Positions 1,099 through 56,527 of a stretch of 64,000 nt of DNA are shown here, piece after piece. The stretch comes from Candidatus Babeliales bacterium (lineage in GTDB: Bacteria; Babelota; Babeliae; Babelales; JABCYS01), in assembly GCA_016929235.1 (NCBI GenBank), contig JAFGJD010000004.1, positions 256,866-320,865 of the forward strand. Reading direction: 5' to 3'. The position numbers were made by a program, and so were the translations under genes. Within the stretch, counting starts at the first letter, position 1. Every line of letters starts with the position of its first letter. Below the pieces are notes generated by a model. It was given only the letters and a program-made list of their open reading frames with translations. It had not been told where the DNA came from and did no database searches.

Positions 1099-1869
1099 CT
1101 AGTTGCATGATTCTAGATCAGTGATGAACGCTTTAACTTGATGAACGTATTCTGCGAATACGGCAGGATCAAAAATGTCTAGATCTCTATCGAGTACGAG
1201 AACAGGTATTTCTTTATACTCCCGAGGGGTGATACCGTTTTTACGAATAAGCCAATCGTCATGGTTAAATGATAATTTTTCTAAATACTCTAGTGGAACG
1301 CCTGCCTCCTCAGATCGATTACGCATCTTGAGGCGCGTGAAGCATATTTCGGGAGATGTTTTGAGGTAGATGAATCCATCTGGTTTTGGTGCATCGGCTA
1401 CATGTTTTTTAAAGAGCTCATTACAGAGTTCCCACTCAAGCGGATTGAGCTGATTGGTTTCCTTAAAGTTACGAGCAAAACAGAAATAACACGAGTAAAT
1501 TGAGCGTTCGAGCAGTGCGACAGGAGCATCTTGATCGGTAGCATGTTCTTGATTTTTAATATGGGTTAGAAAGGCATAGGTCTGAAAGGAATATGCCCAG
1601 CGATTAGAATCGGTATATAATTCTTGGAGCAGATTATATCCATTTACGTTTTGCCATGATTCAACGGGCTCAGGCAAGAACGAAACATCTTGAAGAGCTT
1701 CAGATAACATTCTTAAGAATGTTGTCTTTCCGGCACCAATGTTGCCTTCAACCATTATTTGTAATGGTTCCCGTATTACTATGGTAGGAGCTGCTTCTTC
1801 TTGTGTAGTAGGATACGTAGTACAATATAGTGAGAGTAGCGCTAACGAAAAAAGACGACATTTCTGCAT
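1099..1869 (-). CDS. deoxynucleoside kinase family protein with signal-like N-terminal extension
   Basis: P-loop VEGNIGAGKTTF and an ERSIYS motif typical of the dNK/dGK family. The ORF track starts at TTG 1875. ATG 1869 is preceded by AGGAG at 6-nt spacing, giving N-terminus MQKCRLFSLALLSLYCTT. Confidence 0.85.
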   Translation of the reverse strand: MQKCRLFSLALLSLYCTTYPTTQEEAAPTIVIREPLQIMVEGNIGAGKTTFLRMLSEALQDVSFLPEPVESWQNVNGYNLLQELYTDSNRWAYSFQTYAFLTHIKNQEHATDQDAPVALLERSIYSCYFCFARNFKETNQLNPLEWELCNELFKKHVADAPKPDGFIYLKTSPEICFTRLKMRNRSEEAGVPLEYLEKLSFNHDDWLIRKNGITPREYKEIPVLVLDRDLDIFDPAVFAEYVHQVKAFITDLESCN

Positions 1870-1981
1870 GAGCAACTCCTAAAATTGAGCATAAGAATGA
1901 CCAAAAACATGCTAAGTGTTTCAAACTTTTTTCAAAAAAGAAAGAAGGAATGTATAACTCATTGAGAGCTATAGGTAGGTC

Positions 1982-19346: not shown

Positions 19347-20903
19347 TTATGCTTGATCCCCACCATTTTCTCGTAACAATTGGATGAGAGGCTCGCATTT
19401 TCTTGCTTCTGCTGTTTGAAGTGGAGTAGATCCTGAAAAGTCCGGTAGGGTGGCGTTGGCCCCATATCGTATGAGAAGAGCCGAAATTTTTGCAAAATTA
19501 CTCAAAACCGCGCCGAGTAGAGGAGTCCTTCCACAATATCCTCCTTGAATTATTTGTGCGTTAGGGTTCGCACCGCGTTCAAGAAGAAGCTGAACGAGGG
19601 GTAGCCTTTCTTCCTCTGTAAATCCTACGGAGCGGCTACGGTTATGGGACCAAACGGCAAGATGTAAGGCGGTTTGTCCCATTAACGTTCCTTCATCTAC
19701 CCGTGCTCCGTGTTCTAAGAGAGCTTGTGCTAAGGATACTTGATTTGTCTCTACTGCATAATGTAAAGGTGGGTGGCCCTCAAAGTCTGGGATATTTGGA
19801 TCCGCGTCATGCTCTAATAGAAGTGTCCCCATGGTCTGGCATTCTTCGGGTGTAGCAAAACAGTTTCCGTTGTACAGATTTTGAAAGGCTACAACGTGTA
19901 AAGGCGTTGCTCCTCCAAAGCGAGAATTCAAAGCACGAAACTTTCCTTCGTCTCTTTTCACGTTAGGGTTTGCGCCTTTTCTTAGCAGCATTCGAAGGAT
20001 ATTTATTTTATTTTTTCCATCCACAATGATGTCATGAAGAAGTAGTTGAGTATCTGCCGGATCAGCTCTTTCTAATAAATATTCAGTTAATGGCTCATGT
20101 CCCTTTATTACTGCAAGATGAAGTGGGGTCTGACCATCTCTATTCCGCTGTTGCATGTCGGCGTGGTACTCTAGTAGAAGCGCGGCTGTTAATACATGCC
20201 CTGCCTCTGCAGCGTTATGAAGAGACGTTTTTTGAAAAAAACCTGGTGCATCTACGAGCGCACCGTTTTCCAGTAGGAATCTTGCATAGGATGTGTTTCC
20301 ATATTTTGCCGCTTCGTGAAGTGGCGTGTCTTGAACCATGGCCCCCGCATTAACATCGGCACCACGAGCCAAAAATTCTTTTGCTAGAGCGCACTGTCCT
20401 TCCTCTTGTTTGACATGGTGCATGGTGATGGAATGCAATAGCGTGCAGCCATGGTTATCTTTTGTGGCCACAGAGGCACCACGGTGCATCAATAACAGGC
20501 ACTCAGGAGTACGGAGCCATATTGACATAGATTGAAGGGGAGTGTTTCCGTAATTGTCGCGAGCTTCAATATCAGCACCATTCTCGAGAAGAGGGACCAT
20601 GTGTTTTGCTTGAGCATTATGCAGGGGGGTTTTCCCATGCTTGTCTCTCGCATTAACGTTCGCACCGTTTGCTATCAACAGCCTCGTAATTTCAACGGGT
20701 TGATGTATAACCGCTATATGAAGTGGTGTTTCGCCGTCTTCATTCTGTTCATTAAGCTCCTTAGGGTTGCGAGTGGAGACGGAGGAAATATATGATGCTA
20801 GCACTTCCGATTCTCCCCGCCTCACAAAGTCATGAATATCCGTAGCCAAACCTAGATGTGAGGAAAACATTGTCCACAGGACAAGTACACTTCTTTTATA
20901 CAT
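19347..20903 (-). CDS. secreted multi-ankyrin-repeat protein
   Basis: More than 10 ankyrin repeats (G.TPLH.A...G....V..LL..GA). ATG 20903 is preceded by GGGAG at 8-nt spacing and gives signal-like MYKRSVLVLWTMFSSHLGLA. Confidence 0.85.
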   Translation of the reverse strand: MYKRSVLVLWTMFSSHLGLATDIHDFVRRGESEVLASYISSVSTRNPKELNEQNEDGETPLHIAVIHQPVEITRLLIANGANVNARDKHGKTPLHNAQAKHMVPLLENGADIEARDNYGNTPLQSMSIWLRTPECLLLMHRGASVATKDNHGCTLLHSITMHHVKQEEGQCALAKEFLARGADVNAGAMVQDTPLHEAAKYGNTSYARFLLENGALVDAPGFFQKTSLHNAAEAGHVLTAALLLEYHADMQQRNRDGQTPLHLAVIKGHEPLTEYLLERADPADTQLLLHDIIVDGKNKINILRMLLRKGANPNVKRDEGKFRALNSRFGGATPLHVVAFQNLYNGNCFATPEECQTMGTLLLEHDADPNIPDFEGHPPLHYAVETNQVSLAQALLEHGARVDEGTLMGQTALHLAVWSHNRSRSVGFTEEERLPLVQLLLERGANPNAQIIQGGYCGRTPLLGAVLSNFAKISALLIRYGANATLPDFSGSTPLQTAEARKCEPLIQLLRENGGDQA

Positions 20904-21089
20904 TATAACGACTCCCTTGATTACAAGCATACATTTTCGCGGGACAGGGTATCACACGGAGTATGCCGTGTCTTGTGGGATGGCCTCGGGGGTGGATTAT
21001 AGTTTACTGTAGGAGCTATCAGCCACGTAGATAATTGTTATTTCCAAAATCAGAAAAAAGACGCAATTATTTTCGGGTAACTTCCGGAT

Positions 21090-21182
21090 ATAATTGCTGG
21101 CAGTAACTAAGATCACTGTTCGTGTGCAATTATTACACTATTGCTGTGTCTGATGTCGCTGATGACTCTGAAGATGCGTTAG
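21090..21182 (+). pseudogene. degenerate duplicate of the mraY 3' end
   Basis: 21126-21182 aligns without gaps to 18271-18327 (49/57 identical). It translates to AIITLLLCLMSLMTLKMR* versus AIITLLLCLVSLMTLKMR*. Similarity continues upstream (KITVR) but with 1-nt indels and a TAA. Confidence 0.65.
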
Positions 21183-21741
21183 ATTTTTGTAGGAAATCTT
21201 TCCCAAGGTGATAAAATGTTTTTGCAGTGTAGTAGATGCTAGGGAAAGAGAATCCTGAGGCAGCTAGCAGGAAGAGACTTTTTGAGGTTGCACTAGACCT
21301 GAATAATTGTGGTATCTCCACAAGTAAAGAGGTTATCCAGGCGAATATGAGCCCCTTAAACGCGGTACGGTACATTTCTGGTATTGCGGTTTCTTTTGCT
21401 GTTTTTTCGGAAGAGGCAGGTCTATCCATTGATCGATTCAAGCCATATGCAGCCAGACAGGAGAGAAGCAGTACCGATGCTGTGGTGGTAAGCTGGGGAT
21501 CAGCTCCATAATACAGAAGAAGTGTGACCGCTCGAAGGTCTCTGTTGCTAACCGCAATAGCAAAAGGAGTATCTCCGCGCTCATCCTGTTCATTAATCTG
21601 TAACGACCGATCACCACTGCTGAGCCACTGCTCTAAAGATTTTATGTCTCCTGTCCTTATTGCTTTATGAGCCTCATTGCTCCTTACCATAAACGAGAAG
21701 CCAAGTATAAAAAACGTAATTGCAGGTCTTGCGTATCCCAT
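21133..21741 (-). CDS. ankyrin-repeat membrane protein
   Basis: The N-terminus MGYARPAITFFILGFSFMVRSNEAHKAI resembles that of the 18339..19309 gene. It has one ankyrin pair and then three hydrophobic segments. The last ~16 codons are encoded antisense to the mraY remnant. Confidence 0.65.
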   Translation of the reverse strand: MGYARPAITFFILGFSFMVRSNEAHKAIRTGDIKSLEQWLSSGDRSLQINEQDERGDTPFAIAVSNRDLRAVTLLLYYGADPQLTTTASVLLLSCLAAYGLNRSMDRPASSEKTAKETAIPEMYRTAFKGLIFAWITSLLVEIPQLFRSSATSKSLFLLAASGFSFPSIYYTAKTFYHLGKDFLQKSNASSESSATSDTAIV

Positions 21742-22081: not shown

Positions 22082-23371
22082 TTAGGGTCTCTTGGTTACA
22101 ACATAAAGCGCAAATCCAACTGCGAGAATCGTAATAATAACGATACCTGCAGTTAACTGTGATGCCAGCATAGTTTGGATACCAACCCCCATCAAAACTA
22201 AACAACTGATGAGCGCAAGCCATCCGGTCCATCGTTGCGCCTTGATTTTTCCACGCGATGTTCCGACGAGAAATCCGATAACACTGATGCCAAAGGTAAG
22301 TGTTGGCCCAAGTGCTCCAATCTGCTGGAGTATTGTCTGTGCTCCGCCGCTCGCCATAAGATAGGCCACACAAATAATTCCTTCTACAATCACACCAGCG
22401 TATGGTGTTCCATGCTTATTTAGCTGTGTCATGAGATGTGCAAATGGAATATGACCATTGCGTGCAAGAGTGTATAGGTTCCAGTGATTACTGAATAATA
22501 GTCCATATGCACCGCCCAATGCTGAAAATGCAATGGCTGTATGTGCTGTCGTGCTTAACCAGAGTACAAGCTGCTGACTTTGAGGGAAGAGTGACGCGAA
22601 TAGTGCCGGGAATGCGTCAAGAAACGATGAGAATGACCCAAGTCGTGGTCCAATAAGTAGGTACATACTTGTTTGAAACAGAACAGTAATGATCAGTACG
22701 GTGAGATATGAAAAGTACAATGACCTAGACGCATTGCGTTCTGGATTCTCGATTGAACGGCTGAGTGAACAACTCATCTCAAAGCTAATAAATGCGTATA
22801 AAACATAGGGCAATGATGTTGTAATGCCGCCCCAATAATATGGTCCAGCGGCGATGAACTCTGGCTTAAAATACGTAATTGTTGCCAGGAATGTTCCGAT
22901 AATTGGCAAGGCTTTGAGTACTATAAACATTTTGGTAATCATAGTGCCAACTTTAAGATTATGCATGTTGAGGTAGATGAACAATGCGAGTGTGACGAGA
23001 TCTAACGTAAATGTTGGTACCCATTGTAGTGGCACAAAGAATGTTTGTAATAGTGATGAAGAGACATGGATCATGAGTGTGCCTGACGCAAGCTTGCCGA
23101 CGAAATAAATCCAGCCGCTTATGAATCCCCAGAATATTCCTAGAGTATTTTTGCTATATGCATAAAATCCTCCATCGGGATAGGTGTTTACGAGTGAACC
23201 TATGACATATAAGAGGGGGAGTAATAGTGCTGCTACGACTATGTAACTTACACTGCCGGCCATGCCGGAAAGATGTGCCAGTAATACCGTGTTAATGAAG
23301 GCTCCGGTTCCGAGCATGATATTGACGTTCAGAAGCGTTGCCTCAAATAATGAAAGCTTGTGAGATGACAT
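22082..23371 (-). CDS. APC-superfamily amino acid permease (tandem paralog 1)
   Basis: About 12 TM helices. N-terminal LSLFEATLLNVNIMLGTGAFINT matches LSLLSVIFVNINIMLGSGIFINT of the upstream paralog. ATG 23371 avoids overlapping that paralog. Confidence 0.8.
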   Translation of the reverse strand: MSSHKLSLFEATLLNVNIMLGTGAFINTVLLAHLSGMAGSVSYIVVAALLLPLLYVIGSLVNTYPDGGFYAYSKNTLGIFWGFISGWIYFVGKLASGTLMIHVSSSLLQTFFVPLQWVPTFTLDLVTLALFIYLNMHNLKVGTMITKMFIVLKALPIIGTFLATITYFKPEFIAAGPYYWGGITTSLPYVLYAFISFEMSCSLSRSIENPERNASRSLYFSYLTVLIITVLFQTSMYLLIGPRLGSFSSFLDAFPALFASLFPQSQQLVLWLSTTAHTAIAFSALGGAYGLLFSNHWNLYTLARNGHIPFAHLMTQLNKHGTPYAGVIVEGIICVAYLMASGGAQTILQQIGALGPTLTFGISVIGFLVGTSRGKIKAQRWTGWLALISCLVLMGVGIQTMLASQLTAGIVIITILAVGFALYVVTKRP

Positions 23372-23387
23372 GATAAACTGCCTTGGA

Positions 23388-24725
23388 TTATTTTTGTTCC
23401 ACCTTACACACAGGATATTTGTAATACCTGTAGAGGCTAGTGATAGCGTACATGCTTGTTCCAAAGAGCGCCATAGTCAGATATAGATACAGTGAACCTG
23501 CACCATACAAAACCAGATTACGTAGACATGCGCCAAGTAAGATTGCGCAGCTTGCCAATCCAAGCCAGGGAACCCATCGTCTGATCGAAAATGATTCTCC
23601 TTTATAGTGTGCATAGGCAAGTCCAAGAACGCTTAATGTGTATGCTGTCGTTGGGCCAAGAGCTCCAAGTTGTTGGAGTATCATTTGATTGCCATTGGTA
23701 ACTAGTAAGTAGCCAAAGACGATTAGGCCTTCAACGAGTACGCAGAGTGCTGGAATATGGTGCTTGTTGAACTTGAGCAGGCGGTGGCTAAAGAAGATGT
23801 GTTTATGGTTAGCAAGTGTATGTAGGTTCCAGTGATTACTAAAAAAGATGCCATACGAACCACCGAGCGCTGATGCTGCAATGGCAATATGCAGAATCGA
23901 TATGAGCTTGCGTGCAAATACCTGGTAATACGGAAGCAATGTTTTGACAAACGTGGGTATTGCACCCATATAATTTTCTTGTGCAAGCAGTGCGTCTCCG
24001 CCAGTACTGCTATAAAACAGAAGTTGATATAGCGCACTGATTACAGCAACAACGATGTATGAGTACAAGACTGCTCGTGGCCCATCTCGTTCTGGATTTT
24101 TGAGCGTTTGACTCAGTGAACAGCTTGCTTCAAATCCAATGTATGAGTAGAGAACATACGGAATTGTCGCGGGGATTCCTGCACATAAGAACATGTCGGG
24201 TCTAAATTGTGCATGTCCGGTTAGATACAGACCACCAAGAAACACAAACATGATAGGCGTTAGTTTTGTGAGAATAAAAAAGTAACCCACACGGTTACTG
24301 ATCTTGAGATTGAGCGTGTTGAGGAGTGTGAAAAATCCTACCACAACTAGATCAAGAAAGAGGGTTGAAAATGGCCGTAACCAAGCCACGGCATTTTGCA
24401 TCAAGAGGCTGAATACATGGATCTTGAGGCCAGCCGATGCCAGCTTGGTTGAGAAGTAGATCCAAGAACTGAAAAATCCTGTAAACCGATTTAGGTTGCT
24501 TTTGCCGTAGGTATAAAAGCCTCCGAATGGGTATTTCTCCAAAAGGGCCGCGATGCACAAGATAAGGGGAAGGATTAAAAGCGCTACGATAATATAGGAT
24601 GTAAAGCCAAGAAAACCAGCAAGCTTGGGAAGCAGGACGGTGTTGATGAAGATGCCAGAACCCAACATGATGTTGATGTTGACAAAAATCACGGAAAGAA
24701 GAGATAGATTGTTGTGTTTTGGCAT
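23388..24725 (-). CDS. APC-superfamily amino acid permease (tandem paralog 2)
   Basis: 445-aa polytopic ORF. Shared motifs with 22082..23371 include FEMSCSLS/FEASCSLS and NPER. A 16-nt spacer separates the two genes. Confidence 0.8.
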   Translation of the reverse strand: MPKHNNLSLLSVIFVNINIMLGSGIFINTVLLPKLAGFLGFTSYIIVALLILPLILCIAALLEKYPFGGFYTYGKSNLNRFTGFFSSWIYFSTKLASAGLKIHVFSLLMQNAVAWLRPFSTLFLDLVVVGFFTLLNTLNLKISNRVGYFFILTKLTPIMFVFLGGLYLTGHAQFRPDMFLCAGIPATIPYVLYSYIGFEASCSLSQTLKNPERDGPRAVLYSYIVVAVISALYQLLFYSSTGGDALLAQENYMGAIPTFVKTLLPYYQVFARKLISILHIAIAASALGGSYGIFFSNHWNLHTLANHKHIFFSHRLLKFNKHHIPALCVLVEGLIVFGYLLVTNGNQMILQQLGALGPTTAYTLSVLGLAYAHYKGESFSIRRWVPWLGLASCAILLGACLRNLVLYGAGSLYLYLTMALFGTSMYAITSLYRYYKYPVCKVEQK

Positions 24726-25562: not shown

Positions 25563-26306
25563 TTAATGTGACCAGATTAGGTACGCAATAATGGAACCTG
25601 CAATCGCTGCATTCAAGCTTTCTGCAGGACCAGGCATAGGGAGTGTTATGTGCACATCAGAGCTCTCCTTGATTTCAGATGTGAGTCCATGTGCTTCACT
25701 GCCAATGACAAGAAGCGCCTCGTCAGCATTGATGACTTTCGGCTCCGCGCCACCAGAGATGACGGTTGCGGCAAGTTGTAGCGAGCCTTTGTGTGTAAGT
25801 ACATCGTGCCATGACCACCGGAAGATACGAAGGGAGGTAATAGTGCCGGCACTTGCCTGAACTACTTTTGGATTATATGGATCAACACCACCTATCAGTA
25901 CAATTGATGAACGGTTCAAAGCAACACTGGTGCGTATAAGTGTTCCCATGTTTCCAGGATCAGAAATATTGGCCAAGATGAGGCCTGAAGATAAAACATC
26001 TGGCTTGGGGTGTGGGGGAATAACAAACGTGGCAAGAAGGCCGCTTGGTGTTGTTGCCGATGAGATTTTTTCCATAACATGATCACTTACAAGAATGATC
26101 TTGGAATCCCCAGTCATTTTTTGTGCATGAATTAACATTGCATGTGTGCTGTACAGGGTGTGAAGTTCTGTTCCTGCCGTGAGGATCGTTTTGATGGTGC
26201 GCGTGCCTTCAGCAAGAAAGAGGTTTTGGTTATACCTTTCTTTTACTGAGGTAAGCCTGGTAACGGTTTTTATATTCTCATTGTGGACTGAGGTTATCTC
26301 GTTCAT
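25563..26306 (-). CDS. SpoU/TrmH-family RNA 2'-O-methyltransferase (RlmB-like)
   Basis: SPOUT motifs: NISDPGNMGTLIRTS, LVIGSEAHGL, and ITLPMPGPAESLNAAIAGSI. Directly abuts the tgt stop codon. Confidence 0.85.
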   Translation of the reverse strand: MNEITSVHNENIKTVTRLTSVKERYNQNLFLAEGTRTIKTILTAGTELHTLYSTHAMLIHAQKMTGDSKIILVSDHVMEKISSATTPSGLLATFVIPPHPKPDVLSSGLILANISDPGNMGTLIRTSVALNRSSIVLIGGVDPYNPKVVQASAGTITSLRIFRWSWHDVLTHKGSLQLAATVISGGAEPKVINADEALLVIGSEAHGLTSEIKESSDVHITLPMPGPAESLNAAIAGSIIAYLIWSH

Positions 26307-27440
26307 TTAGATCTCGTCGTTTAGAATATTTTGACGATACTCTGACATAAGTGTGACCATAAAGTGAAGGTTATGAATGGTTGCCAGAATATACCCGGTC
26401 ATTTCCTTTGCCTTGAATAAGTGATGCAGATATGCACGTGTGTAATGAGTACATGTGTGACATGCGCATGCTGGATCAACGGGTTCAAAAGCAGTTTTAT
26501 TTGTTGTGTTGAGAATTTTTATGTTACCGCGTTTGGTAAACAATAGTCCGTGTCGTGCACAACGCGTTGGATGTGAGCTGTCGAATGTATCGATGCCGAG
26601 TTTGACAATCGGATGAATGGATTCTAGGTCACCAATTCCGAGAAGATGATTGGGTTTATTTTGCGGCATATGTGGCATCAAAAATGTGAGAAGCTCAACC
26701 ATTTCTTCACGATTTTTCCCAATGCTTCCTCCGATAGCGTAGCCATCAAACGGCAATGTTTTGAGATAGTCGATACTTTTTTTGCGGAGATTTTGATCAA
26801 TCCCTCCGTGGACAACAGCGTACATTGCTTGATTGTTTGGATTTTTCATATGTTCGTCTAGTGAGCGTTTTTCCCAGCGATGTGTGCGTTCTACTGATGA
26901 TTCTAACTTTTTGGGATCGATATGATATGGTGGTAGCTCGTCGAGCGGGATAATGATATCAGCCCCTAGATCTTTTTGTGCACGTACTGATGATTCGGGC
27001 GTGAGAAGAACCCTCGTTCCGTCTCGATACGATCTAAAAAGAACACCGTCATCGGTGATCTTGAGGACCGAACCGTCATGCTTCTTTTTACCCTTGCTCT
27101 TGAGTTCGTCCTTAACGGTTCCATATGCCAAGCTGAACACTTGGAAACCACCAGAATCAGTTATGAGCGGCATATTTCGGTTCATGAACGAGTGCAATCC
27201 GCCGGCTTGTTTGATGACTTTGGTTCCTGGTTGGAGCATGAGGTGGTATGTGTTGCAGAACATGAGTTGGAGCCCAATATCCTCGACTGTTTTGCTATCA
27301 AGTGCTTTGAGGGTGGCGTTCGTGCCAACCGCGACAAACGAAGGGGTCTCAATGACTCCATGTGGTGTGTAGATGCGCCCAACACGTGCACGTGACTTTC
27401 TTGATTGATGAATGATCTCGAATTTGAACTGCTGTGACAT
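26307..27440 (-). CDS. tgt: tRNA-guanine transglycosylase
   Basis: TDSGGFQV, the catalytic Asp in IDTFDS, and Zn site CACHTCTHYTRAYLHHL. Pocket positions are non-canonical (see findings). Confidence 0.95.
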   Translation of the reverse strand: MSQQFKFEIIHQSRKSRARVGRIYTPHGVIETPSFVAVGTNATLKALDSKTVEDIGLQLMFCNTYHLMLQPGTKVIKQAGGLHSFMNRNMPLITDSGGFQVFSLAYGTVKDELKSKGKKKHDGSVLKITDDGVLFRSYRDGTRVLLTPESSVRAQKDLGADIIIPLDELPPYHIDPKKLESSVERTHRWEKRSLDEHMKNPNNQAMYAVVHGGIDQNLRKKSIDYLKTLPFDGYAIGGSIGKNREEMVELLTFLMPHMPQNKPNHLLGIGDLESIHPIVKLGIDTFDSSHPTRCARHGLLFTKRGNIKILNTTNKTAFEPVDPACACHTCTHYTRAYLHHLFKAKEMTGYILATIHNLHFMVTLMSEYRQNILNDEI

Positions 27441-27446
27441 GATGCC

Positions 27447-28106
27447 TTAACGAGGTTGGAAATATTTGGTCAGTCCTACAAATGGTGTTGCTATAGCAAT
27501 CACACTCAATTTGATAGCGTAACTGACGATCATGATGTGCGCAAGCGAGTGCACGACGCCATAAAGCCCCAATATGCTGAATAAGATTGTGTCAACTAGC
27601 TGGGTTGCTGAGATGCTCAGATAGTTGCGTGTGACTAGGGATGCAAAAGGAAGTTTATACTTGAGAATCGCATATAAGCGAGTGTCGAGATAAAGGACGA
27701 TCAGGTAGGTGACCAATGATGCGATTACAATCCGTGGCATGACACCAAGTATGGCAGTAAAATGAGGATGCTGCGTATCAACTGAAGCAGGCGTATAGGC
27801 GAGGTGGATCATGCTTAGCAGCATGGTTACAAGTGAGGTGAAGAAGGTTACCCAAATGGTCCGTTGTGCCGTGGCACGATCGTAAAACTCTTGGATCAGG
27901 TTAATGCCGAGTGTGATACCGACAACAAAAGCATCAGTTGGTGTCACGGTTAGACCAAAGAGGGTGATTTGCTTAGTTACAAAGAGATTCATGAGTACTG
28001 CGAAGATACACATGAGTCCTATCAGCGCCTGTAGGCCGATGCGGTTTGCGACGATCAATGTGGCGCTGATCATCGTGATATGTAATAGAAAAATTAATTC
28101 ATTCAT
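27447..28106 (-). CDS. yhhQ: queuosine-precursor transporter (YhhQ/DUF165 family)
   Basis: 219-aa protein with 6 TM helices and a layout typical of the YhhQ/VUT family. It sits 6 nt upstream of tgt. Confidence 0.7.
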   Translation of the reverse strand: MNELIFLLHITMISATLIVANRIGLQALIGLMCIFAVLMNLFVTKQITLFGLTVTPTDAFVVGITLGINLIQEFYDRATAQRTIWVTFFTSLVTMLLSMIHLAYTPASVDTQHPHFTAILGVMPRIVIASLVTYLIVLYLDTRLYAILKYKLPFASLVTRNYLSISATQLVDTILFSILGLYGVVHSLAHIMIVSYAIKLSVIAIATPFVGLTKYFQPR

Positions 28107-31321: not shown

Positions 31322-34300
31322 GTGAAATATAGCGGGAGTTTTGTTTGTGGTGTGTTGTTTGCAACCTCATTCGGCATGATGTACGGAATTACGTTTATGG
31401 AGAGGGCTCATCCTGATAATACTATTGAACTCCCAGCAGAAATAGTTGCAGCGTCACCCTATTTAAGTCAGCAACCAGATGCAAGGATAGAGGTTTCCAC
31501 CGACCTATTTACTCTTTTCAGGGATTATACAGAAAATAGGACAGAAAGCGCTCAAGCGTATTTAAGTGCCAATTTTCAGAGATTTAAAGAGAACGCTGAG
31601 GTCCTTTTGAATGAAGCCATTCAATTGGGATATGAGCCTATTACGAGAATAATTGCGTTGGGTGATGCTTATAAAGATCGAGTATTCAGGAGAGTTGAAG
31701 GTTGGACCAGAACATATGCTCCAGATGCAGTTCAGTCTGAAGTAGTATCAATTCCATGGGCCACACGGGCGGAATTTTTTGATGCATATCAGGAATATGC
31801 TACAACGCATATGAGATTATCTCCAAAGGATCTTAAAACACTTATCAAGGTCAATGTGGTTGCCATTGATCCGCTAGGGCAGACTGGTACTCCCGTAGAG
31901 ATGACGTACGAGCAGGTTGAATATTCAGCTCTCTGGGTAAGGGGTATTGCGGCCGATAGAAGAATTTACGTTTCCAGTCCCGAGGGTCAGCTTGATGGTA
32001 CAACTGCATCAATTGGGAATGTTGTTGATTTCTTGAGAAAGGTTCCCAATTTTAGGTCTCAAGGAAAAATAAGTGGTAGTTGGACGCAAGTGAGAGGATT
32101 CAGTTTCATTTTGTCGCAACTGTATATCCCTACAGATGTGCAGCGCCTGCTCATAGAGAGCCCTGGATTTATTGAATCAATTTCAGATGTTGGTACTATT
32201 TCGCGCTTTTTTCGCAACCTAAACCTAGTGACTCCGCTTGATCAACGACCAGTAGCTTCGACATTCCTCGATGATATGAAACAGCGCCAGTTAGATGTTG
32301 CTCATAACCAAGCGTATCTACGCTTGATTGACAGATATATGCGATTGGCAGAGCAGGTTGAAGGAGGTTTGAATGGCGAGGATCGATGGGTGATAGAGCT
32401 TCTAAAGTCATTTGAGCCGGATGTAAGAGAGGCACTAATTACGAACTATGAAGGAACATTTAGCAAGAAATTATATCTTGAACAGCCAAATGTTCGTCTC
32501 ATTAGTTCGAATAATGAATACATTCTCATGGATGACCAAGTTGCTAGCAAATCTAGATATCTCAGAGAGAGAATGCGTACAGCCGAGCAGTCTTCGGGGC
32601 AAGAAGGCCGGCAAGAGTATCTTTTCAGAGAAGCGGATTTTACTACAAGTGATCTTCAGCTTGCCACAGGGCTTATGACGGCACAGGCATGTGCACGAGA
32701 AGGCACATCATATAGTGATTTGAGAAAATTTGTTATGACTGAGCAGGGTGAGGGCATGTCTGATTGGTTGCTTCGTACAGGATACAATGTCTTTGTGGAC
32801 TATGTTATGCCCCTTGCTGGAGCCTATGCAACGTACAGAACGGCGACAACGAATGCTAATCCGCTTGCTGCTGCTGGAGTGGGAACTGCGACGGCTAGCT
32901 ATACTGGATTGCGACGTTTTTGGAAAAAGTATTTTGCTGACCCAGTAGCTCCAAAGAATGCAGAGGCTGCTTTAAAAAGTCATGATGCTTGGGGTTATGA
33001 GCTTGCATTTGTGCGTCAGGCATTGATTCCAGAATATGTTGATCGATTTGCTCAGCGACAAAGAGGTGGTAAGACCTTAGCAGAATTGAATGAGATTGGG
33101 CTTTCTAGGTTGCAGCGCTATTTTAATGAGGTTGGATTTAGCGAGGGCATCTTGGTTGATATAGGTCGTTATTACTTTTTCAATAATTTTGATGCAGTGC
33201 GCCAATACTTTATAGCGAAAAGGGCTGAAGAAGGAGGTACTGAAATTGCTGACAAGGGAATCAAGCCTCTTGAGTTTGGAATAAACTATTCTATGTCTGT
33301 TGGAGAGCGGTTGGATTGGGTATGGATGCGCCCCCTTGCCGCGCACCAGGGGGGTAGGGTTCTTGATTTAAGTTGGCAAATGATTGGTAGTCTGCGTGGC
33401 ATAGAAGGAGTTGAGGGAATCACAAATGTTGTAAAATTGACTCTGGAAGAAAACGCACTGGTTAGTCTTGAAGGCTTAGGAGAATTACAAGGTATTTCAG
33501 AGATTCTTTGTTCGCGTAATTCTCTAGCATCTGTTAATCCAGAGGATCTTCCTGCTAGTTTGACACGACTTGATTTAATGGGTAACCGCCTTACTTATAT
33601 TGATATTGAGGGCATCTTGGCGCGATGCCCTCAATTGAAATCTATTGATCTGAACGGCAATAATCTTCCTTCTTTTGAGGTGGAGCGTATTGTAAAGGTG
33701 TGGGAAGCTGTGCGCAAGGCGAGTCCTGAGCGTGGTATGATTGAGCTGAAGGCGAATGCTTTAGATGGCGCTCAAAATAGGGGGCGTTTTGAAAGTATTT
33801 TATTTGCTCTGAGGAATCTTATGACACGTATTACCGAAGGTGCTAAGACGCTGTGGAAGCGAACTAAGACACAAGATGTGGTTAGTAGAACTGCAATAGC
33901 TACAGAGCAGGAAGCTTTGGCTAACCCAAGTGAAGCTGATGCTCTCCTAGCACAGGGACAAGCAGTCTACGATGCAATGACGGCTGGTGATATTGATGGC
34001 ATTGAGCGCGAGATTGATACTCTGGCAGGGGCTGCGAAACTTACCGAGGAAGAACGTAGAGATCTTGCTGAACAACTCGACGCAGCAACGCTTGACACAG
34101 CGGCTATTGCAGAGCTCCCAATAATTGAACCGGTTCCAGAGGGAGATGGTGGTAGCGAAGCTGCTACCTCTGAAGCCAGTTTTGAATCGGCATATCAGGT
34201 TCCTGCAATGGAAGGTATTTGGAATGATTACGATGTTAGCATGCGAGAGCTTAATAGGACTCAAGAAATAGAACGTGTAGCGTTACGTGAGGCTAAAGAG

Positions 34301-34507
34301 CAGGAGCTGCGTGATGTTACAGAAGAAGCTCGTCAACAGGAAATTGAACAGCGGTATGAAGGACAAATGCGCGAAGTGAATGAACGACAAGCTCGTGAGC
34401 GAGCTGAGTTATCACAGGAACGAGAACGACGTCTTGAAGAACAGCGACGGCAGGAGCGGGAGCGTGTCGAGGCTTCACGTGAACCGAGGGCATCGGCCGG
34501 TGTTTAA
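31322..34507 (+). CDS. large secreted LRR protein with E/R-rich coiled-coil tail
   Basis: 1061-aa ORF with a GTG start preceded by GAGGAG. Hydrophobic N-terminus. LRR block approximately LDLSWQMIGSLRGIEGV...LDLMGNRLTYIDI...IDLNGNNLPSF. C-terminal ~100 aa are E/R/Q-rich. Confidence 0.6.
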   Translation: MKYSGSFVCGVLFATSFGMMYGITFMERAHPDNTIELPAEIVAASPYLSQQPDARIEVSTDLFTLFRDYTENRTESAQAYLSANFQRFKENAEVLLNEAIQLGYEPITRIIALGDAYKDRVFRRVEGWTRTYAPDAVQSEVVSIPWATRAEFFDAYQEYATTHMRLSPKDLKTLIKVNVVAIDPLGQTGTPVEMTYEQVEYSALWVRGIAADRRIYVSSPEGQLDGTTASIGNVVDFLRKVPNFRSQGKISGSWTQVRGFSFILSQLYIPTDVQRLLIESPGFIESISDVGTISRFFRNLNLVTPLDQRPVASTFLDDMKQRQLDVAHNQAYLRLIDRYMRLAEQVEGGLNGEDRWVIELLKSFEPDVREALITNYEGTFSKKLYLEQPNVRLISSNNEYILMDDQVASKSRYLRERMRTAEQSSGQEGRQEYLFREADFTTSDLQLATGLMTAQACAREGTSYSDLRKFVMTEQGEGMSDWLLRTGYNVFVDYVMPLAGAYATYRTATTNANPLAAAGVGTATASYTGLRRFWKKYFADPVAPKNAEAALKSHDAWGYELAFVRQALIPEYVDRFAQRQRGGKTLAELNEIGLSRLQRYFNEVGFSEGILVDIGRYYFFNNFDAVRQYFIAKRAEEGGTEIADKGIKPLEFGINYSMSVGERLDWVWMRPLAAHQGGRVLDLSWQMIGSLRGIEGVEGITNVVKLTLEENALVSLEGLGELQGISEILCSRNSLASVNPEDLPASLTRLDLMGNRLTYIDIEGILARCPQLKSIDLNGNNLPSFEVERIVKVWEAVRKASPERGMIELKANALDGAQNRGRFESILFALRNLMTRITEGAKTLWKRTKTQDVVSRTAIATEQEALANPSEADALLAQGQAVYDAMTAGDIDGIEREIDTLAGAAKLTEEERRDLAEQLDAATLDTAAIAELPIIEPVPEGDGGSEAATSEASFESAYQVPAMEGIWNDYDVSMRELNRTQEIERVALREAKEQELRDVTEEARQQEIEQRYEGQMREVNERQARERAELSQERERRLEEQRRQERERVEASREPRASAGV

Positions 34508-40445: not shown

Positions 40446-41678
40446 ATGAAGAAGAGCGTGGTAGTGGTGGGAGTGCTAGGATGTCTCCTTATGGTTCCGA
40501 TAGTATTTTGGTCCATGGAACAAGGTGGACCCGCTCGTGCGGGGAAGGGCAAAGAAAGAGAAGAGATTGAGGAAGTGATCCAAGCAGAGGCATCGCTGTG
40601 GGAATGGTTGGTTGGAGCATTGTGGGAAGCGGGAAGCGCCTTATTCCCTGTGGTAAGGGGAAGGTCAACTGCAGCAGATGATGAGTTGAGGGAATGGGCA
40701 TTAGCAAATCCAAATGATCCAAGGTCAATAGAATATTTTATATATACGGGTGCACAGCCAGGTCCAGCTGAAGTTGCTCACGCGAGAGAAGAAGTGGAAG
40801 AAAGCAAGGAAGAGATGATAGAGCAGCTGGCGGCCGGAGAGGCGGGTCCTTCAGGAGAGGCAGAACCTGAGATAGTTCGCTTATTAAGAGCTGCACAGGA
40901 ACGTCTTCCAGTACCCGAAAGACCGACACGGGGAGATGTCCCCAGTTTACAGGATCAAATAATTAATCGCATAGTTGATTTGATATCCGTTGATCAAGAG
41001 ATATGGCGTCAGATACGAGATAAAGAACCATATTTGCCAGTGGCATTTAAACAATTAATTGAAAAAAAATATCTTGAACGTTATGAGCATAGCTTACCTG
41101 AGTATGATTATGCCATACATGATTTAAATGATTTAATTGAAGAGGGAAGTGGTAATGAGCCGCGACTAGTTATCAACCATCCGTGGCTTGTGAGCTTAGT
41201 GGGCCTTACCCAGATTAAAGGAATTAGCAAGGTTCGCGAGTTGGTAATACAAGGTGCAACTATTTATGAGATTCCTTCTGAAATAGGTGATTTGGTACAA
41301 TTACGAGAGCTCAATTTACGAGGTACAAGAATAACACAGTTGCCCGCAGAGATTGGTCGCTTAGCCAATTTGCAAACTCTTAATTTAGAAGACACAAGAA
41401 TAACACAGTTGCCCGTAGAGATTGGTCGCTTAGCCAATCTGCAAACTCTTGATTTAGGAAACACAAGAATAACACAGTTGCCCGCAGAGATTGGTCGCTT
41501 AGCCAATCTGCAAACTCTTGATTTAGGAGACACAAGAATAACACAGTTGCCCGCAGAGATTGGTCGCTTAACCCAATTAAGCTATCTTAATTTGATGAAT
41601 ACCCCACTGGCTCGAAATCAAAAAGAGATACATAAAATTAGAAAATTGCTGCCTGAGGGGTGTTGGTTTTTGTTCTGA
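40446..41678 (+). CDS. secreted leucine-rich-repeat protein (eukaryote-like 23-aa LRRs)
   Basis: AGGAG Shine-Dalgarno sequence. Signal MKKSVVVVGVLGCLLMVPIVFWS. C-terminal repeats TRITQLPAEIGRLANLQTLDLG. Confidence 0.8.
   Translation: MKKSVVVVGVLGCLLMVPIVFWSMEQGGPARAGKGKEREEIEEVIQAEASLWEWLVGALWEAGSALFPVVRGRSTAADDELREWALANPNDPRSIEYFIYTGAQPGPAEVAHAREEVEESKEEMIEQLAAGEAGPSGEAEPEIVRLLRAAQERLPVPERPTRGDVPSLQDQIINRIVDLISVDQEIWRQIRDKEPYLPVAFKQLIEKKYLERYEHSLPEYDYAIHDLNDLIEEGSGNEPRLVINHPWLVSLVGLTQIKGISKVRELVIQGATIYEIPSEIGDLVQLRELNLRGTRITQLPAEIGRLANLQTLNLEDTRITQLPVEIGRLANLQTLDLGNTRITQLPAEIGRLANLQTLDLGDTRITQLPAEIGRLTQLSYLNLMNTPLARNQKEIHKIRKLLPEGCWFLF
41325..41600 (+). repeat. 4 x 69-bp in-frame tandem repeat inside the LRR gene
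   Basis: Units start at 41325, 41394, 41463 and 41532. Unit 1 vs unit 2 differ at 5/69 positions; unit 2 vs unit 3 at 2/69. Unit 4 diverges after about 40 nt. Confidence 0.9.
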
Positions 41679-44917: not shown

Positions 44918-45011
44918 GGAGAGATGGCTGAGTGGTCGAAAGCGGCCGCCTCGAAAGCGGTTATTCCGGATAAAACCGGGATCGGGGGTTCGAATCCCCC
45001 TCTCTCCTCCA
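44918..45011 (+). tRNA. tRNA-Ser (anticodon CGA), class II with long variable arm, CCA encoded
   Basis: Acceptor stem GGAGAGA/TCTCTCC. D arm GCT-GAGTGGTCGAA-AGC. Anticodon stem-loop GCCGC-CTCGAAA-GCGGT. Variable stem TCCGG/CCGGG. T arm GGGGG-TTCGAAT-CCCCC. Confidence 0.9.
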
Positions 45012-56461: not shown

Positions 56462-56527
56462 GTAACAGCTCCTTACAGGAGTGTAATGATACACAGAGAG
56501 TCAGTTTTTGCTACTACTGGAAGGTTA

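What the first reader, a model, noticed from the sequence alone, without database searches (positions are those of the whole stretch)
26307..28106. tgt with a eukaryote-like (queuine-type) pocket, coupled to a YhhQ-family transporter
**Gene context.** The genes for a YhhQ-like transporter, TGT and a SpoU methylase are packed with 6-nt and 0-nt spacers.

**Pocket residues.** I aligned the protein by eye to the well-studied Zymomonas TGT.
- Specificity positions: FDEC (Cys158) is LDEL here.
- GGLAVGE (Leu231-Ala232-Val233) is GGSIGKN here, so Val233 becomes Gly.
- The conserved Gln203 (GIQQG/GIVQGG) is His here (AVVHGG).
- Catalytic and structural elements are intact: the catalytic Asp residues (TDSGGFQ, DTFDS) and the Zn site.

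**Established background.** Cys158Val and Val233Gly are the changes that distinguish queuine-using eukaryotic TGT from preQ1-using bacterial TGT. An intracellular pathogen (Chlamydia) has been shown to salvage queuine directly with a YhhQ-type transporter plus TGT.

**Hypothesis.** This locus may be a host-queuine salvage module with a novel pocket variant.
Basis: partly seen in the sequence, partly recalled or inferred. Interest (0 to 1): 0.6.

Follow-up and report, generated by a model that had tools for sequence, protein, structure and literature searches.

The report
Chlamydia-type queuine salvage genes in Dependentiae
A parasite of protists (a Dependentiae bacterium) carries the same transporter-plus-enzyme gene pair that Chlamydia uses to take the tRNA-modifying base queuine from its host, so the enzyme's "odd" pocket is the known chlamydial one and not a new variant.

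Summary
The three genes are real and packed as described, on the minus strand: yhhQ/QPTR (27447-28106), tgt (26307-27440) and a SpoU-class methyltransferase (25563-26306), with 6-nt and 0-nt spacers. The window comes from a Candidatus Babeliales (Dependentiae/TM6) MAG.

The pocket substitutions are real: Leu at Zymomonas (Zm) Cys158, His at Gln203, and a GGSIGKN loop one residue shorter than GGLAVGE and lacking Glu235. They are not novel. Every one recurs in C. trachomatis TGT (LDEL, VIHGG, GGSLGKN; 54% identity), the enzyme reported to insert queuine directly, along with the same 18-residue insert.

- **Clade:** the protein sits in the "bacterial-like TGT" clade of Chlamydiae, Dependentiae and eukaryotic organellar TGTs (NJ bootstrap 100).
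- **Identity:** it is 67-70% identical to TGTs of environmental Chlamydiae.
- **Linkage:** yhhQ lies just upstream of tgt in both phyla.
- **Prior report:** chlamydial ancestry of a Dependentiae TGT (Babela) was published in 2016.

Best reading: a host-queuine salvage module of the known chlamydial type.

Not shown here: substrate specificity, and genome-wide absence of queA/queG (only the 64-kb window was checked). "Val233 becomes Gly" depends on where the one-residue gap is placed.

Verdict: new member of a known kind, modest interest.

The parts
27447..28106 (-). yhhQ / QPTR (COG1738, Vut_1) membrane transporter, 219 aa; predicted importer of queuine
   Evidence: PF02592 1e-26 and TIGR00697 134 bits against a cutoff of 51. 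Identity is 43-50% to other Dependentiae YhhQ, 35-42% to environmental Chlamydiae, 33% to C. pneumoniae and 20% to E. coli YhhQ. It lies upstream of tgt on the same strand in 7 of 7 evaluable Dependentiae loci and in 5 Chlamydiae/PVC MAG loci (L008-L012; L012 is labelled Verrucomicrobiae) plus Algichlamydia (L084) and C. pneumoniae (L083).
27441..27446 (-). 6-nt spacer between the yhhQ stop (TAA) and the tgt ATG
   Evidence: Read directly.
26307..27440 (-). tgt, tRNA-guanine(34) transglycosylase of the Chlamydia-type 'bacterial-like TGT' clade, 377 aa
   Evidence: PF01702 5e-124; TIGR00430 422 bits. AF2 model pLDDT 86.6, TM 0.87-0.88 to Z. mobilis TGT structures. 54% identity to C. trachomatis TGT. 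Clade bootstrap 100.
27141..27161 (-). TDSGGFQ motif: Asp95 (= Zm Asp102) and Phe99 (= Zm Tyr106)
   Evidence: Alignments; invariant in the family; coordinates checked.
27069..27122 (-). 18-residue Lys-rich insert (GTVKDELKSKGKKKHDGS) absent from Z. mobilis and human TGT
   Evidence: Conserved in Dependentiae, Chlamydiae and eukaryotic BL-TGT.
26934..26945 (-). LDEL: Asp167 (= Zm Asp156) and Leu169 at the Zm Cys158 specificity position
   Evidence: DEL is present in 120 of 120 close homologs. C. trachomatis has LDEL.
26808..26810 (-). His211 at the position of Zm Gln203 / human Gln202
   Evidence: VHGG occurs in the Dependentiae, Chlamydiae and eukaryotic BL clade, but QGG in the outgroups.
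26712..26732 (-). GGSIGKN substrate loop, one residue shorter than GGLAVGE/GGLSGGE, with no Glu235 equivalent
   Evidence: In the AF2 secondary structure the strand is 233-236, the loop 237-243 and the helix starts at 244. C. trachomatis has GGSLGKN.
26580..26582 (-). Asp287, equivalent of the covalent nucleophile Zm Asp280
26373..26468 (-). Zinc site CxCxxC...H (Cys325, Cys327, Cys330, His356)
25563..26306 (-). SpoU-class 2'-O-methyltransferase (RlmB/TrmH-like, with an MRM3-like N-terminal domain). Its start codon abuts the tgt stop. Co-transcription is likely; a functional link to queuosine is unproven.
   Evidence: PF00588 and PF22435. Best NCBIfam hit is RlmB at 74 bits, below the cutoff of 160. 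PDB relatives are RNA 2'-O-methyltransferases. It lies directly downstream of tgt in 7 of 7 evaluable Dependentiae loci and in none of the chlamydial loci.

Best explanation
This is a two-gene queuine salvage module of the chlamydial type in an obligate protist-associated Dependentiae bacterium.

**Proposed mechanism**
1. YhhQ imports the free base queuine from the host cytoplasm.
2. The TGT, presumably a homodimer like other bacterial TGTs, swaps the encoded G34 of tRNA-Asp, -Asn, -His and -Tyr for queuine in one step. It uses the usual covalent Asp nucleophile (Asp287), so no QueA or QueG/QueH step is needed.
3. The pocket that accepts the bulky cyclopentenediol side chain is the one shared by all chlamydial and 'bacterial-like' organellar TGTs: Leu for Cys158, His for Gln203, and a loop shortened by one residue that has lost Glu235.

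**Shown here**
- Gene identity, fold, catalytic residues and pocket residues.
- Identity of the pocket with that of C. trachomatis TGT.
- Clade membership.
- Conserved yhhQ-tgt linkage in both phyla.

**Inferred**
- The substrate of both proteins, by homology to the C. trachomatis pair tested by Yuan et al. 2019. I could not read that paper itself; I rely on its citations in PMC11570991 and PMC12301720.
- Absence of the rest of the pathway.

The downstream SpoU methyltransferase is probably just an operon neighbour that modifies rRNA or tRNA.
For: **Organism**
- 100% match to a Candidatus Babeliales protein.
- TM6 genomes lack complete nucleotide and cofactor biosynthesis (PMC4776705).

**Pocket**
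- MAFFT and BLASTP show the same LDEL, V(I/V)HGG, GGS(L/I)GK(N) motifs and the same 18-aa insert in C. trachomatis (P0512), C. pneumoniae, C. abortus, Clavichlamydia and Algichlamydia.

**Literature**
- C. trachomatis TGT+YhhQ salvage queuine, and q-salvaging TGTs have an altered GGxxG site (PMC11570991).
- All BL-TGTs share the C. trachomatis pocket, with Leu at the Cys158 position and Gly at the Val233 position in their register (PMC12301720).

**Phylogeny and identity**
- The BL clade has bootstrap 100.
- Mean identity between Dependentiae and environmental Chlamydiae TGTs is 68.7%, against 44% to the outgroups.

**Linkage and transporter**
- yhhQ is immediately upstream of tgt in both phyla.
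- The YhhQ is closer to chlamydial than to E. coli YhhQ.

**Negative findings that fit**
- No preQ1 riboswitch upstream of yhhQ.
- No Q-biosynthesis Pfam family among the window's ORFs.
Against: - No biochemical data exist for any Dependentiae protein.
- Genome-wide absence of queA/queG/queH and queC/D/E/F was not testable. Only 64 kb of a contig of about 322 kb was available, plus about 20-kb flanks in 7 other Dependentiae genomes.
- Some eukaryotes carry a BL-TGT together with QueA and QueG, and those are proposed to use preQ1 (PMC12301720). The BL pocket alone therefore does not exclude preQ1 use.
- Bartonella shows that 'tgt + yhhQ only' does not by itself prove queuine specificity (PMC11570991).
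- Engineered Cys158Val/Val233Gly Z. mobilis TGT binds queuine but does not use it (PMC3660597). Pocket residues are therefore necessary clues, not sufficient proof.
- The Val233-to-Gly equivalence depends on the alignment register.
Confidence: 0.72

Rival explanations
1. preQ1 (or preQ0) salvage without further maturation, as proposed for Bartonella henselae. YhhQ would import preQ1 and TGT would insert it, leaving preQ1-tRNA or relying on dual specificity.
For: Bartonella and Pelagibacter have tgt+yhhQ only, yet keep preQ1 specificity (PMC11570991). NCBIfam names the transporter only 'queuosine precursor transporter'.
Against: - Those preQ1-type enzymes keep the canonical GGLAVG site. This one has the chlamydial LDEL/HGG/GGSIGK pocket.
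- The YhhQ is only 20% identical to the preQ0/preQ1 transporter of E. coli.
- There is no preQ1 riboswitch.
- From general knowledge, preQ1 is not expected in a eukaryotic host cytoplasm.
Confidence: 0.1
2. Ordinary bacterial pathway. TGT inserts preQ1, imported by YhhQ, and QueA plus QueG/QueH encoded elsewhere in the genome finish the job, as proposed for mitochondrial BL-TGT in Chloropicon and Galdieria.
For: - Most of the genome was not examined.
- BL-TGT coexists with QueA and QueG in some algae (PMC12301720).
Against: - No such genes lie in the 64-kb window or in the 20-kb flanks of L001 and L002.
- tgt is not next to queA here.
- TM6 genomes are reported to lack complete nucleotide and cofactor pathways.
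- The closest bacterial relatives, the Chlamydiaceae, are listed among tgt-only taxa.
Confidence: 0.1
3. The altered pocket (His203, Lys at the Glu235 position, shortened loop, Lys-rich insert) serves a different substrate or target. Examples would be another 7-deazaguanine derivative or a non-tRNA-G34 site, possibly working with the coupled SpoU methyltransferase.
For: - The pocket differs from both Z. mobilis TGT and human QTRT1.
- The tgt-SpoU coupling is conserved in Dependentiae, and SpoU genes also sit next to non-canonical tgt in Saccharibacteria.
Against: - The same pocket in C. trachomatis is reported to insert queuine into tRNA (cited in PMC11570991 and PMC12301720).
- Chlamydiae lack the SpoU neighbour.
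- The protein scores above the Tgt equivalog cutoff.
Confidence: 0.05

Closest known systems
Chlamydia trachomatis TGT (CT193) + YhhQ (CT140) queuine salvage (Yuan et al. 2019 PNAS, as cited in PMC11570991 and PMC12301720)
   Same: - The TGT has the same pocket (LDEL, HGG, GGS[L/I]GKN), the same 18-aa insert, FDSSxPT, and the same C-terminal end. Identity is 54%.
- The YhhQ belongs to the same subgroup.
- The transporter gene is linked to tgt in C. pneumoniae and in environmental Chlamydiae.
- Both organisms live inside eukaryotic cells.
   Different: - The phylum is different (Dependentiae).
- Ile replaces Leu at loop position 4 in this genome; 101 of the 120 listed close homologs have Leu.
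- A SpoU methyltransferase is translationally abutted downstream, which Chlamydiae lack.
- There is no experimental test.
Babela massiliensis TGTase, reported as acquired from Chlamydiae (Manna & Harman 2016, summarised in PMC13305018)
   Same: A Dependentiae TGT of chlamydial type. This is the same observation of cross-phylum relatedness.
   Different: - That work covered one isolate and framed the transfer as occurring inside Acanthamoeba.
- Here the gene appears in more than 100 protein clusters from Dependentiae MAGs, at 73-77% identity to the window protein.
- The neighbourhood is conserved: yhhQ upstream of tgt, then SpoU and an amino-acid permease downstream in all evaluable loci, with murB further upstream in the two loci where it was seen (L001, L002). 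This points to an old acquisition.
- The linked yhhQ and the queuine-salvage reading were not part of what I could see of that report.
Eukaryotic organellar 'bacterial-like TGT' (BL-TGT) of algae and protozoa (PMC12301720)
   Same: - Same clade (bootstrap 100) and same pocket motifs.
- 55-60% identity to Porphyridium, Salpingoeca and Minutocellus proteins.
   Different: - The eukaryotic proteins carry N-terminal extensions that are consistent with organelle targeting.
- Some coexist with QueA and QueG.
- They have no adjacent yhhQ.
Human/eukaryotic QTRT1-QTRT2 queuine tRNA-ribosyltransferase
   Same: It inserts queuine directly, has a non-Cys residue at the 158 position, and has the same fold and catalytic Asp residues.
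   Different: - Human has Val161, Gln202 and a full-length GGLSGGE loop with Glu retained.
- It works as a heterodimer with QTRT2.
- The window protein scores better against bacterial TGT (about 1e-87) than against QTRT1 (about 1e-73).
Canonical bacterial TGT (Z. mobilis, E. coli) with YhhQ preQ0/preQ1 transporter
   Same: Same fold (TM 0.88), catalytic residues and zinc site. Same transporter superfamily.
   Different: - Cys158, Gln203 and GGLAVGE are all changed.
- An 18-aa insert is present.
- About 41-43% identity to Z. mobilis TGT.
- The YhhQ is 20% identical to E. coli YhhQ.

Membership tests
tRNA-guanine transglycosylase (PF01702 / TIGR00430 Tgt) | Profile score above the curated cutoff | tested here: met
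   PF01702 414 bits (cutoff 26); TIGR00430 422 bits (cutoff 307).
tRNA-guanine transglycosylase (PF01702 / TIGR00430 Tgt) | Catalytic Asp residues (Zm Asp102, Asp156, Asp280) and the CxCxxC...H zinc site | tested here: met
   Asp95, Asp167, Asp287; Cys325/327/330 and His356. Aligned; invariant.
tRNA-guanine transglycosylase (PF01702 / TIGR00430 Tgt) | TGT TIM-barrel fold | tested here: met
   AF2 pLDDT 86.6; Foldseek TM 0.87-0.88, E about 1e-37 to Z. mobilis TGT structures.
Chlamydia-type / 'bacterial-like' TGT (BL-TGT) clade | Leu at the Zm Cys158 position | tested here: met
   LDEL in the window. DEL is present in 120 of 120 close homologs and in all Chlamydia TGTs aligned. Criterion stated in PMC12301720.
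Chlamydia-type / 'bacterial-like' TGT (BL-TGT) clade | Gly at the Zm Val233 position (published register), i.e. a GGS[LIV]G loop | tested here: inconclusive
   The motif GGSIG is present and matches C. trachomatis GGSLG. However, HMMER and MAFFT place a one-residue gap so that Ile, not Gly, aligns with Val233. The spatial register needs a coordinate superposition.
Chlamydia-type / 'bacterial-like' TGT (BL-TGT) clade | Monophyly with chlamydial and eukaryotic BL-TGT sequences | tested here: met
   NJ tree of 60 sequences and 375 columns; the clade has bootstrap 100 of 100. The method is distance-based only; no ML tree was possible.
Chlamydia-type / 'bacterial-like' TGT (BL-TGT) clade | Uses queuine as substrate | not testable with these tools
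   Requires a base-exchange assay or tRNA mass spectrometry.
Queuine-salvage-only organism (tgt + transporter, no QueA/QueG/QueH, no preQ1 synthesis) | Absence of queA, queG/queH, queC/D/E/F and folE in the genome | tested here: inconclusive
   None were found among the 58 ORFs of at least 70 aa called in the 64-kb window, nor in the flanks of L001 and L002.
QPTR / YhhQ (COG1738, PF02592, TIGR00697) | Profile score above the cutoff | tested here: met
   PF02592 94 bits (cutoff 27); TIGR00697 134 bits (cutoff 51).
QPTR / YhhQ (COG1738, PF02592, TIGR00697) | Belongs to the subgroup found with queuine-type TGT (chlamydial) rather than the preQ0/preQ1 subgroup | tested here: met
   33-42% identity to chlamydial YhhQ against 20% to E. 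coli YhhQ, and a shared N-terminal MNELIF... extension. This is identity-based only; no sequence similarity network (SSN) was built.
Eukaryotic eTGT catalytic subunit (QTRT1) | Val at 158, Gln at 203, a full-length GGLSGGE loop, and a QTRT2 partner | tested here: not met
   The window protein has Leu, His and a shortened GGSIGKN loop. It matches bacterial TGT better than QTRT1. No QTRT2-like gene was seen in the window.

The most novel reading that the evidence does not exclude
yhhQ-tgt may be an ancient two-gene queuine-salvage cassette that moved between unrelated protist-associated lineages. These would include Chlamydiota, the ancestor of the Babeliae/Dependentiae, and Victivallaceae.

On this reading the mitochondrial BL-TGT of algae and protozoa need not be specifically 'chlamydial'. 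A Dependentiae-like or shared endosymbiont gene pool could have been the donor.

My distance tree does not resolve the order of Dependentiae, Chlamydiae and eukaryotes within the clade (internal supports 4-60), so this is not excluded.
Probability: 0.15. Interest if true: 0.45.

Novelty: new member of a known kind. Interest (0 to 1): 0.25.

Why it matters
It extends direct queuine salvage from Chlamydia to a second whole lineage of obligate intracellular bacteria. Until now that trait, in which a bacterium behaves like a eukaryote toward a bacterial micronutrient, was experimentally tied to Chlamydia.

It also shows that the transporter and enzyme genes are linked in both phyla. This makes the pair a useful genomic marker of host dependence.

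It cautions that the 'chlamydial origin' of organellar TGTs in algae and protozoa was inferred before Dependentiae diversity was sampled.

For specialists the functional prediction is expected rather than surprising.

Tried and rejected
- **Primary source not held.** I tried to read Yuan et al. 2019 by DOI and by PMC id; it is not in the library. I relied on two papers that cite it.
- **Supplement search.** I searched the supplements of the Bartonella paper for Dependentiae/Babeliales and for the loop motifs and found nothing. One file was truncated when stored.
- **Literature on Dependentiae and queuosine.** Searches for Dependentiae + queuosine and Babela + queuine returned no papers. The Babela and Chromulinavorax genome papers do not mention queuosine or tgt.
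- **Getting chlamydial sequences.** I used a sequence recalled from memory only as bait. The real sequences it returned (C. abortus 87%, C. pneumoniae 85%) were used for all comparisons. C. trachomatis TGT was identified through its cluster.
- **Riboswitch and signals.** I looked for a preQ1 riboswitch or any Rfam element upstream of yhhQ and found none. Promoter and terminator scans were no better than shuffles.
- **Genome scan.** It does not give a census of Dependentiae.
- **Rejected: 'novel pocket'.** The pocket is identical to that of the chlamydial enzymes.
- **Rejected: membership in eukaryotic QTRT1.**
- **Could not do.** I could not inspect AF2 coordinates to settle the loop register, build an ML tree, or search whole Dependentiae genomes for queA/queG.
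Full report
**What is there**

The minus strand of 25563-28106 carries three tightly packed genes.
- A 219-aa YhhQ/QPTR transporter at 27447-28106: PF02592 1e-26; TIGR00697 'queuosine precursor transporter' 134 bits against a cutoff of 51.
- A 377-aa tRNA-guanine transglycosylase at 26307-27440: PF01702 5e-124; TIGR00430 422 bits against a cutoff of 307.
- A 247-aa SpoU-class RNA 2'-O-methyltransferase at 25563-26306.

The yhhQ stop (TAA) is followed by six bases and then the tgt ATG. The tgt stop (TAA) is followed directly by the ATG of the methyltransferase. An exact protein match names the source as a Candidatus Babeliales (Dependentiae/TM6) MAG on a 321,671-bp contig. The window content fits that origin: ankyrin and LRR proteins, a deoxynucleoside kinase and amino-acid permeases.

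**Checking the pocket**

HMMER alignment to Z. mobilis (Zm) TGT from the PDB, and a MAFFT alignment that also includes human QTRT1, agree on most points. I verified the human sequence residue-for-residue against PDB 7nq4.
- Leu169 sits at Zm Cys158 (LDEL).
- His211 sits at Zm Gln203 (AVVHGG).
- The catalytic residues Asp95, Asp167 and Asp287 and the zinc ligands Cys325/327/330 and His356 are intact.

An AlphaFold2 model (pLDDT 86.6, pTM 0.86) matches Zm TGT structures at TM 0.87-0.88.

One claim does not survive unchanged: 'Val233 becomes Gly'. Between the GG that ends the strand and the next helix this protein has five residues (SIGKN), where Zm (LAVGEG) and human (LSGGES) have six. Both aligners put the gap at Leu231. 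That makes Ser239=Ala232, Ile240=Val233, Gly241=Gly234 and Lys242=Glu235. Relatives with GGSLGE or GGALGE (P0148, P0162, P0240, L013) support this as the evolutionary register.

It may be the correct spatial description once the loop is shortened. I could not inspect coordinates to decide. Either way the loop is shorter and the Glu235 carboxylate is gone, whereas human QTRT1 keeps that Glu.

- An 18-residue Lys-rich insert (GTVKDELKSKGKKKHDGS) after FQVFSLAY.
- Leu267 at the position of Zm Met260.

**The pocket is not new**

Among the 120 closest homologs returned by the search, all 73-77% identical and labelled Babeliales or Dependentiae wherever a name is given, the motifs IP[FL]DELPP, YAV[IV]HGG and GGS[LIFMV]GK[TNS] and the insert are conserved.

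I retrieved real chlamydial TGTs and identified C. trachomatis TGT (P0512, TGT_CHLTA) through its cluster. The window protein is 54% identical to it (E 5e-155). The chlamydial enzyme reads LPLDELLPFH, GVIHGG and AIGGSLGKNLQD, and carries the same insert (AYGSVAEEIKSCGKKKG), FDSSYPT and the same C-terminal ...ILNDxI.

The literature already defines this group.
- The Chloropicon paper calls it 'BL-TGT'. It states that C. trachomatis and all BL-TGTs share the pocket differences, with Leu at Cys158 and Gly at Val233 in their register.
- The Bartonella paper states that C. trachomatis TGT salvages queuine and that q-salvaging TGTs have an altered GGxxG site.

'Eukaryote-like' is only loosely right. 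QTRT1 has Val/Gln/GGLSGGE, while this clade has Leu/His/GGS(L/I)GK. It is a different structural answer to the same problem.

**Where the protein sits**

A search of 50%-identity cluster representatives put eukaryotic proteins with N-terminal extensions at the top, at 55-62% identity. They include Porphyridium purpureum, Salpingoeca kvevrii and the diatom Minutocellus, all with GGSLG and VHGG.

A scan of species-representative genomes returned three tiers:
- Dependentiae MAGs at 67-74% identity.
- Environmental Chlamydiae/PVC MAGs at 67-69%.
- After a sharp drop, Opitutales, Holosporaceae and Saccharibacteria at 44-48%, and Actinobacteria at about 41%.

Those outgroups share the short loop and an insert but keep Cys or a different residue context at position 158 and Gln at position 203.

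In a neighbour-joining tree, Dependentiae + Chlamydiae + Victivallaceae + eukaryotic BL-TGT form a clade with 100/100 bootstrap. Relationships inside it are poorly resolved: Dependentiae + environmental Chlamydiae has support 60.

| Comparison | Mean TGT identity |
|---|---|
| Dependentiae vs Dependentiae | 74.7% |
| Dependentiae vs environmental Chlamydiae | 68.7% |
| Environmental Chlamydiae vs each other | 71.2% |
| Environmental Chlamydiae vs Chlamydiaceae | 56.3% |

A 2026 review summarises Manna & Harman (2016) as having already concluded that Babela massiliensis, a Dependentiae, acquired its TGTase from Chlamydiae. The cross-phylum link is therefore published.

**The module**

yhhQ lies upstream of tgt on the same strand in all seven evaluable Dependentiae loci. 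It is adjacent or within about 0.4 kb in five of them and within about 2 kb in two.

The same arrangement holds in the chlamydial loci.
- In the five Chlamydiae/PVC MAG loci (L008-L012; L012 is labelled Verrucomicrobiae) and in Algichlamydia, yhhQ overlaps or abuts tgt.
- In C. pneumoniae it is 775 nt upstream.

The window YhhQ identities are as follows.

| Compared with | Identity |
|---|---|
| Other Dependentiae YhhQ | 43-50% |
| Environmental chlamydial YhhQ | 35-42% |
| C. pneumoniae YhhQ | 33% |
| Actinobacterial YhhQ | 28-30% |
| E. coli YhhQ | 20% |

It also shares an N-terminal MNELIF... extension with the chlamydial proteins. No preQ1 riboswitch or other Rfam element precedes yhhQ.

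The SpoU methyltransferase and an amino-acid permease follow tgt in all evaluable Dependentiae loci but in none of the chlamydial ones. Its closest characterised relatives are RlmB/TrmH-type rRNA and tRNA 2'-O-methyltransferases, below the equivalog cutoffs.

**Mechanism**

The best-supported reading (confidence about 0.72) has two steps.
1. YhhQ imports host queuine.
2. The TGT inserts it directly at G34 of the four GUN-anticodon tRNAs, through the conserved Asp287 covalent mechanism, with no need for QueA or QueG/H.

Shown here: identities, fold, residues, clade membership and linkage. Inferred: substrate specificity, by homology to the C. trachomatis pair, and absence of the remaining pathway.

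On the latter, no queA, queG, queH, queC/D/E/F, folE or Qng1 family was found among the 58 ORFs of at least 70 aa called in the 64-kb window, or in the 20-kb flanks of L001 and L002. TM6 genomes are reported to lack complete nucleotide and cofactor pathways.

Three cautions apply.
- Bartonella keeps preQ1 specificity despite being 'tgt + yhhQ only'.
- Some algae pair BL-TGT with QueA/QueG.
- The engineered Cys158Val/Val233Gly Z. mobilis enzyme binds queuine but does not use it.

**Novelty and verdict**

This is a new member of a known kind. It is the chlamydial-type queuine salvage module found in, and apparently widespread across, Dependentiae.

No paper in the searchable library links Dependentiae with queuosine. 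However, the chlamydial ancestry of a Dependentiae TGT is published, and the functional inference follows directly from the C. trachomatis work.

Two modest additions come from this analysis.
- The gene is common across Dependentiae MAGs within a conserved neighbourhood (yhhQ upstream; SpoU and an amino-acid permease downstream; murB further upstream in L001 and L002). This argues for an old acquisition rather than a recent event inside Acanthamoeba.
- The transporter gene is linked to tgt in both phyla, which suggests a two-gene cassette.

Interest 0.25.

Noticed in passing
window 25563-26306 (-); L002, L004-L007, L014; L020:308-781, L021:9468-9968: A SpoU-class 2'-O-methyltransferase (RlmB/TrmH-like, below equivalog cutoffs) is start-stop abutted to tgt in all evaluable Dependentiae loci. 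A shorter SpoU gene sits immediately upstream of the non-canonical tgt in two Saccharibacteria MAGs. Chlamydiae lack this neighbour. The target (rRNA G2251 or tRNA) is unknown.
   Followed up: partly
window 27069-27122 (-), TGT residues 107-124: An 18-residue Lys-rich insert (G-V-ELKS-G-K core invariant) follows the Tyr106-equivalent. It is conserved in Dependentiae, Chlamydiae and eukaryotic BL-TGTs and absent from Z. mobilis and human TGT. In the AF2 model residues 109-115 form a helix and the rest of the insert is coil. Its role is unknown; tRNA contact is one possibility.
   Followed up: partly
L016, L018, L019, L020, L021, L026-L082: A broader set of non-canonical TGTs has the same one-residue-shorter loop and an insert, but different residues at 158 and 203. 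Opitutales, Holosporaceae and Saccharibacteria have DEC/QGG/GGSLG. Actinobacteria have DELTT/QGA/GGALEK, often with yhhQ convergent next to tgt.
   Followed up: partly
window 56534-56884 (-): Bacterial RNase P RNA class A (226 bits). The mechanical ORF 56486-56959 (+) that overlaps it is therefore spurious.
   Followed up: no
window 44918-45011 (+): tRNA-Ser(CGA), the only tRNA gene in the window.
   Followed up: no
window 19347-20930, 21133-21741, 31322-34507, 40446-41678: Ankyrin-repeat and leucine-rich-repeat proteins, typical eukaryote-interaction domains of intracellular bacteria. An ankyrin-repeat gene follows the tgt-SpoU-permease block in L002 as well.
   Followed up: no
window 1099-1875 (-): Deoxynucleoside kinase (PF01712, 7e-54). 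This is consistent with nucleoside salvage from the host.
   Followed up: no
window 22082-23464 and 23388-24725 (-): Two tandem amino-acid permease paralogs lie downstream of the tgt operon. One or two copies are conserved at this position in other Dependentiae loci.
   Followed up: no
L084:11151-12080: In Candidatus Algichlamydia an EamA/DMT-family transporter directly follows the overlapping yhhQ-tgt pair. This is a different downstream partner from the Dependentiae SpoU gene.
   Followed up: no
L005 (CAZKLV010000001.1), L012 (CAVUAA010000001.1): Public MAG labels look wrong or imprecise. L005 is labelled 'uncultured Pseudomonadota' but has the Dependentiae tgt synteny and 72% TGT identity. 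L012 is labelled 'Verrucomicrobiae' but carries a chlamydial-type overlapping yhhQ-tgt.
   Followed up: no
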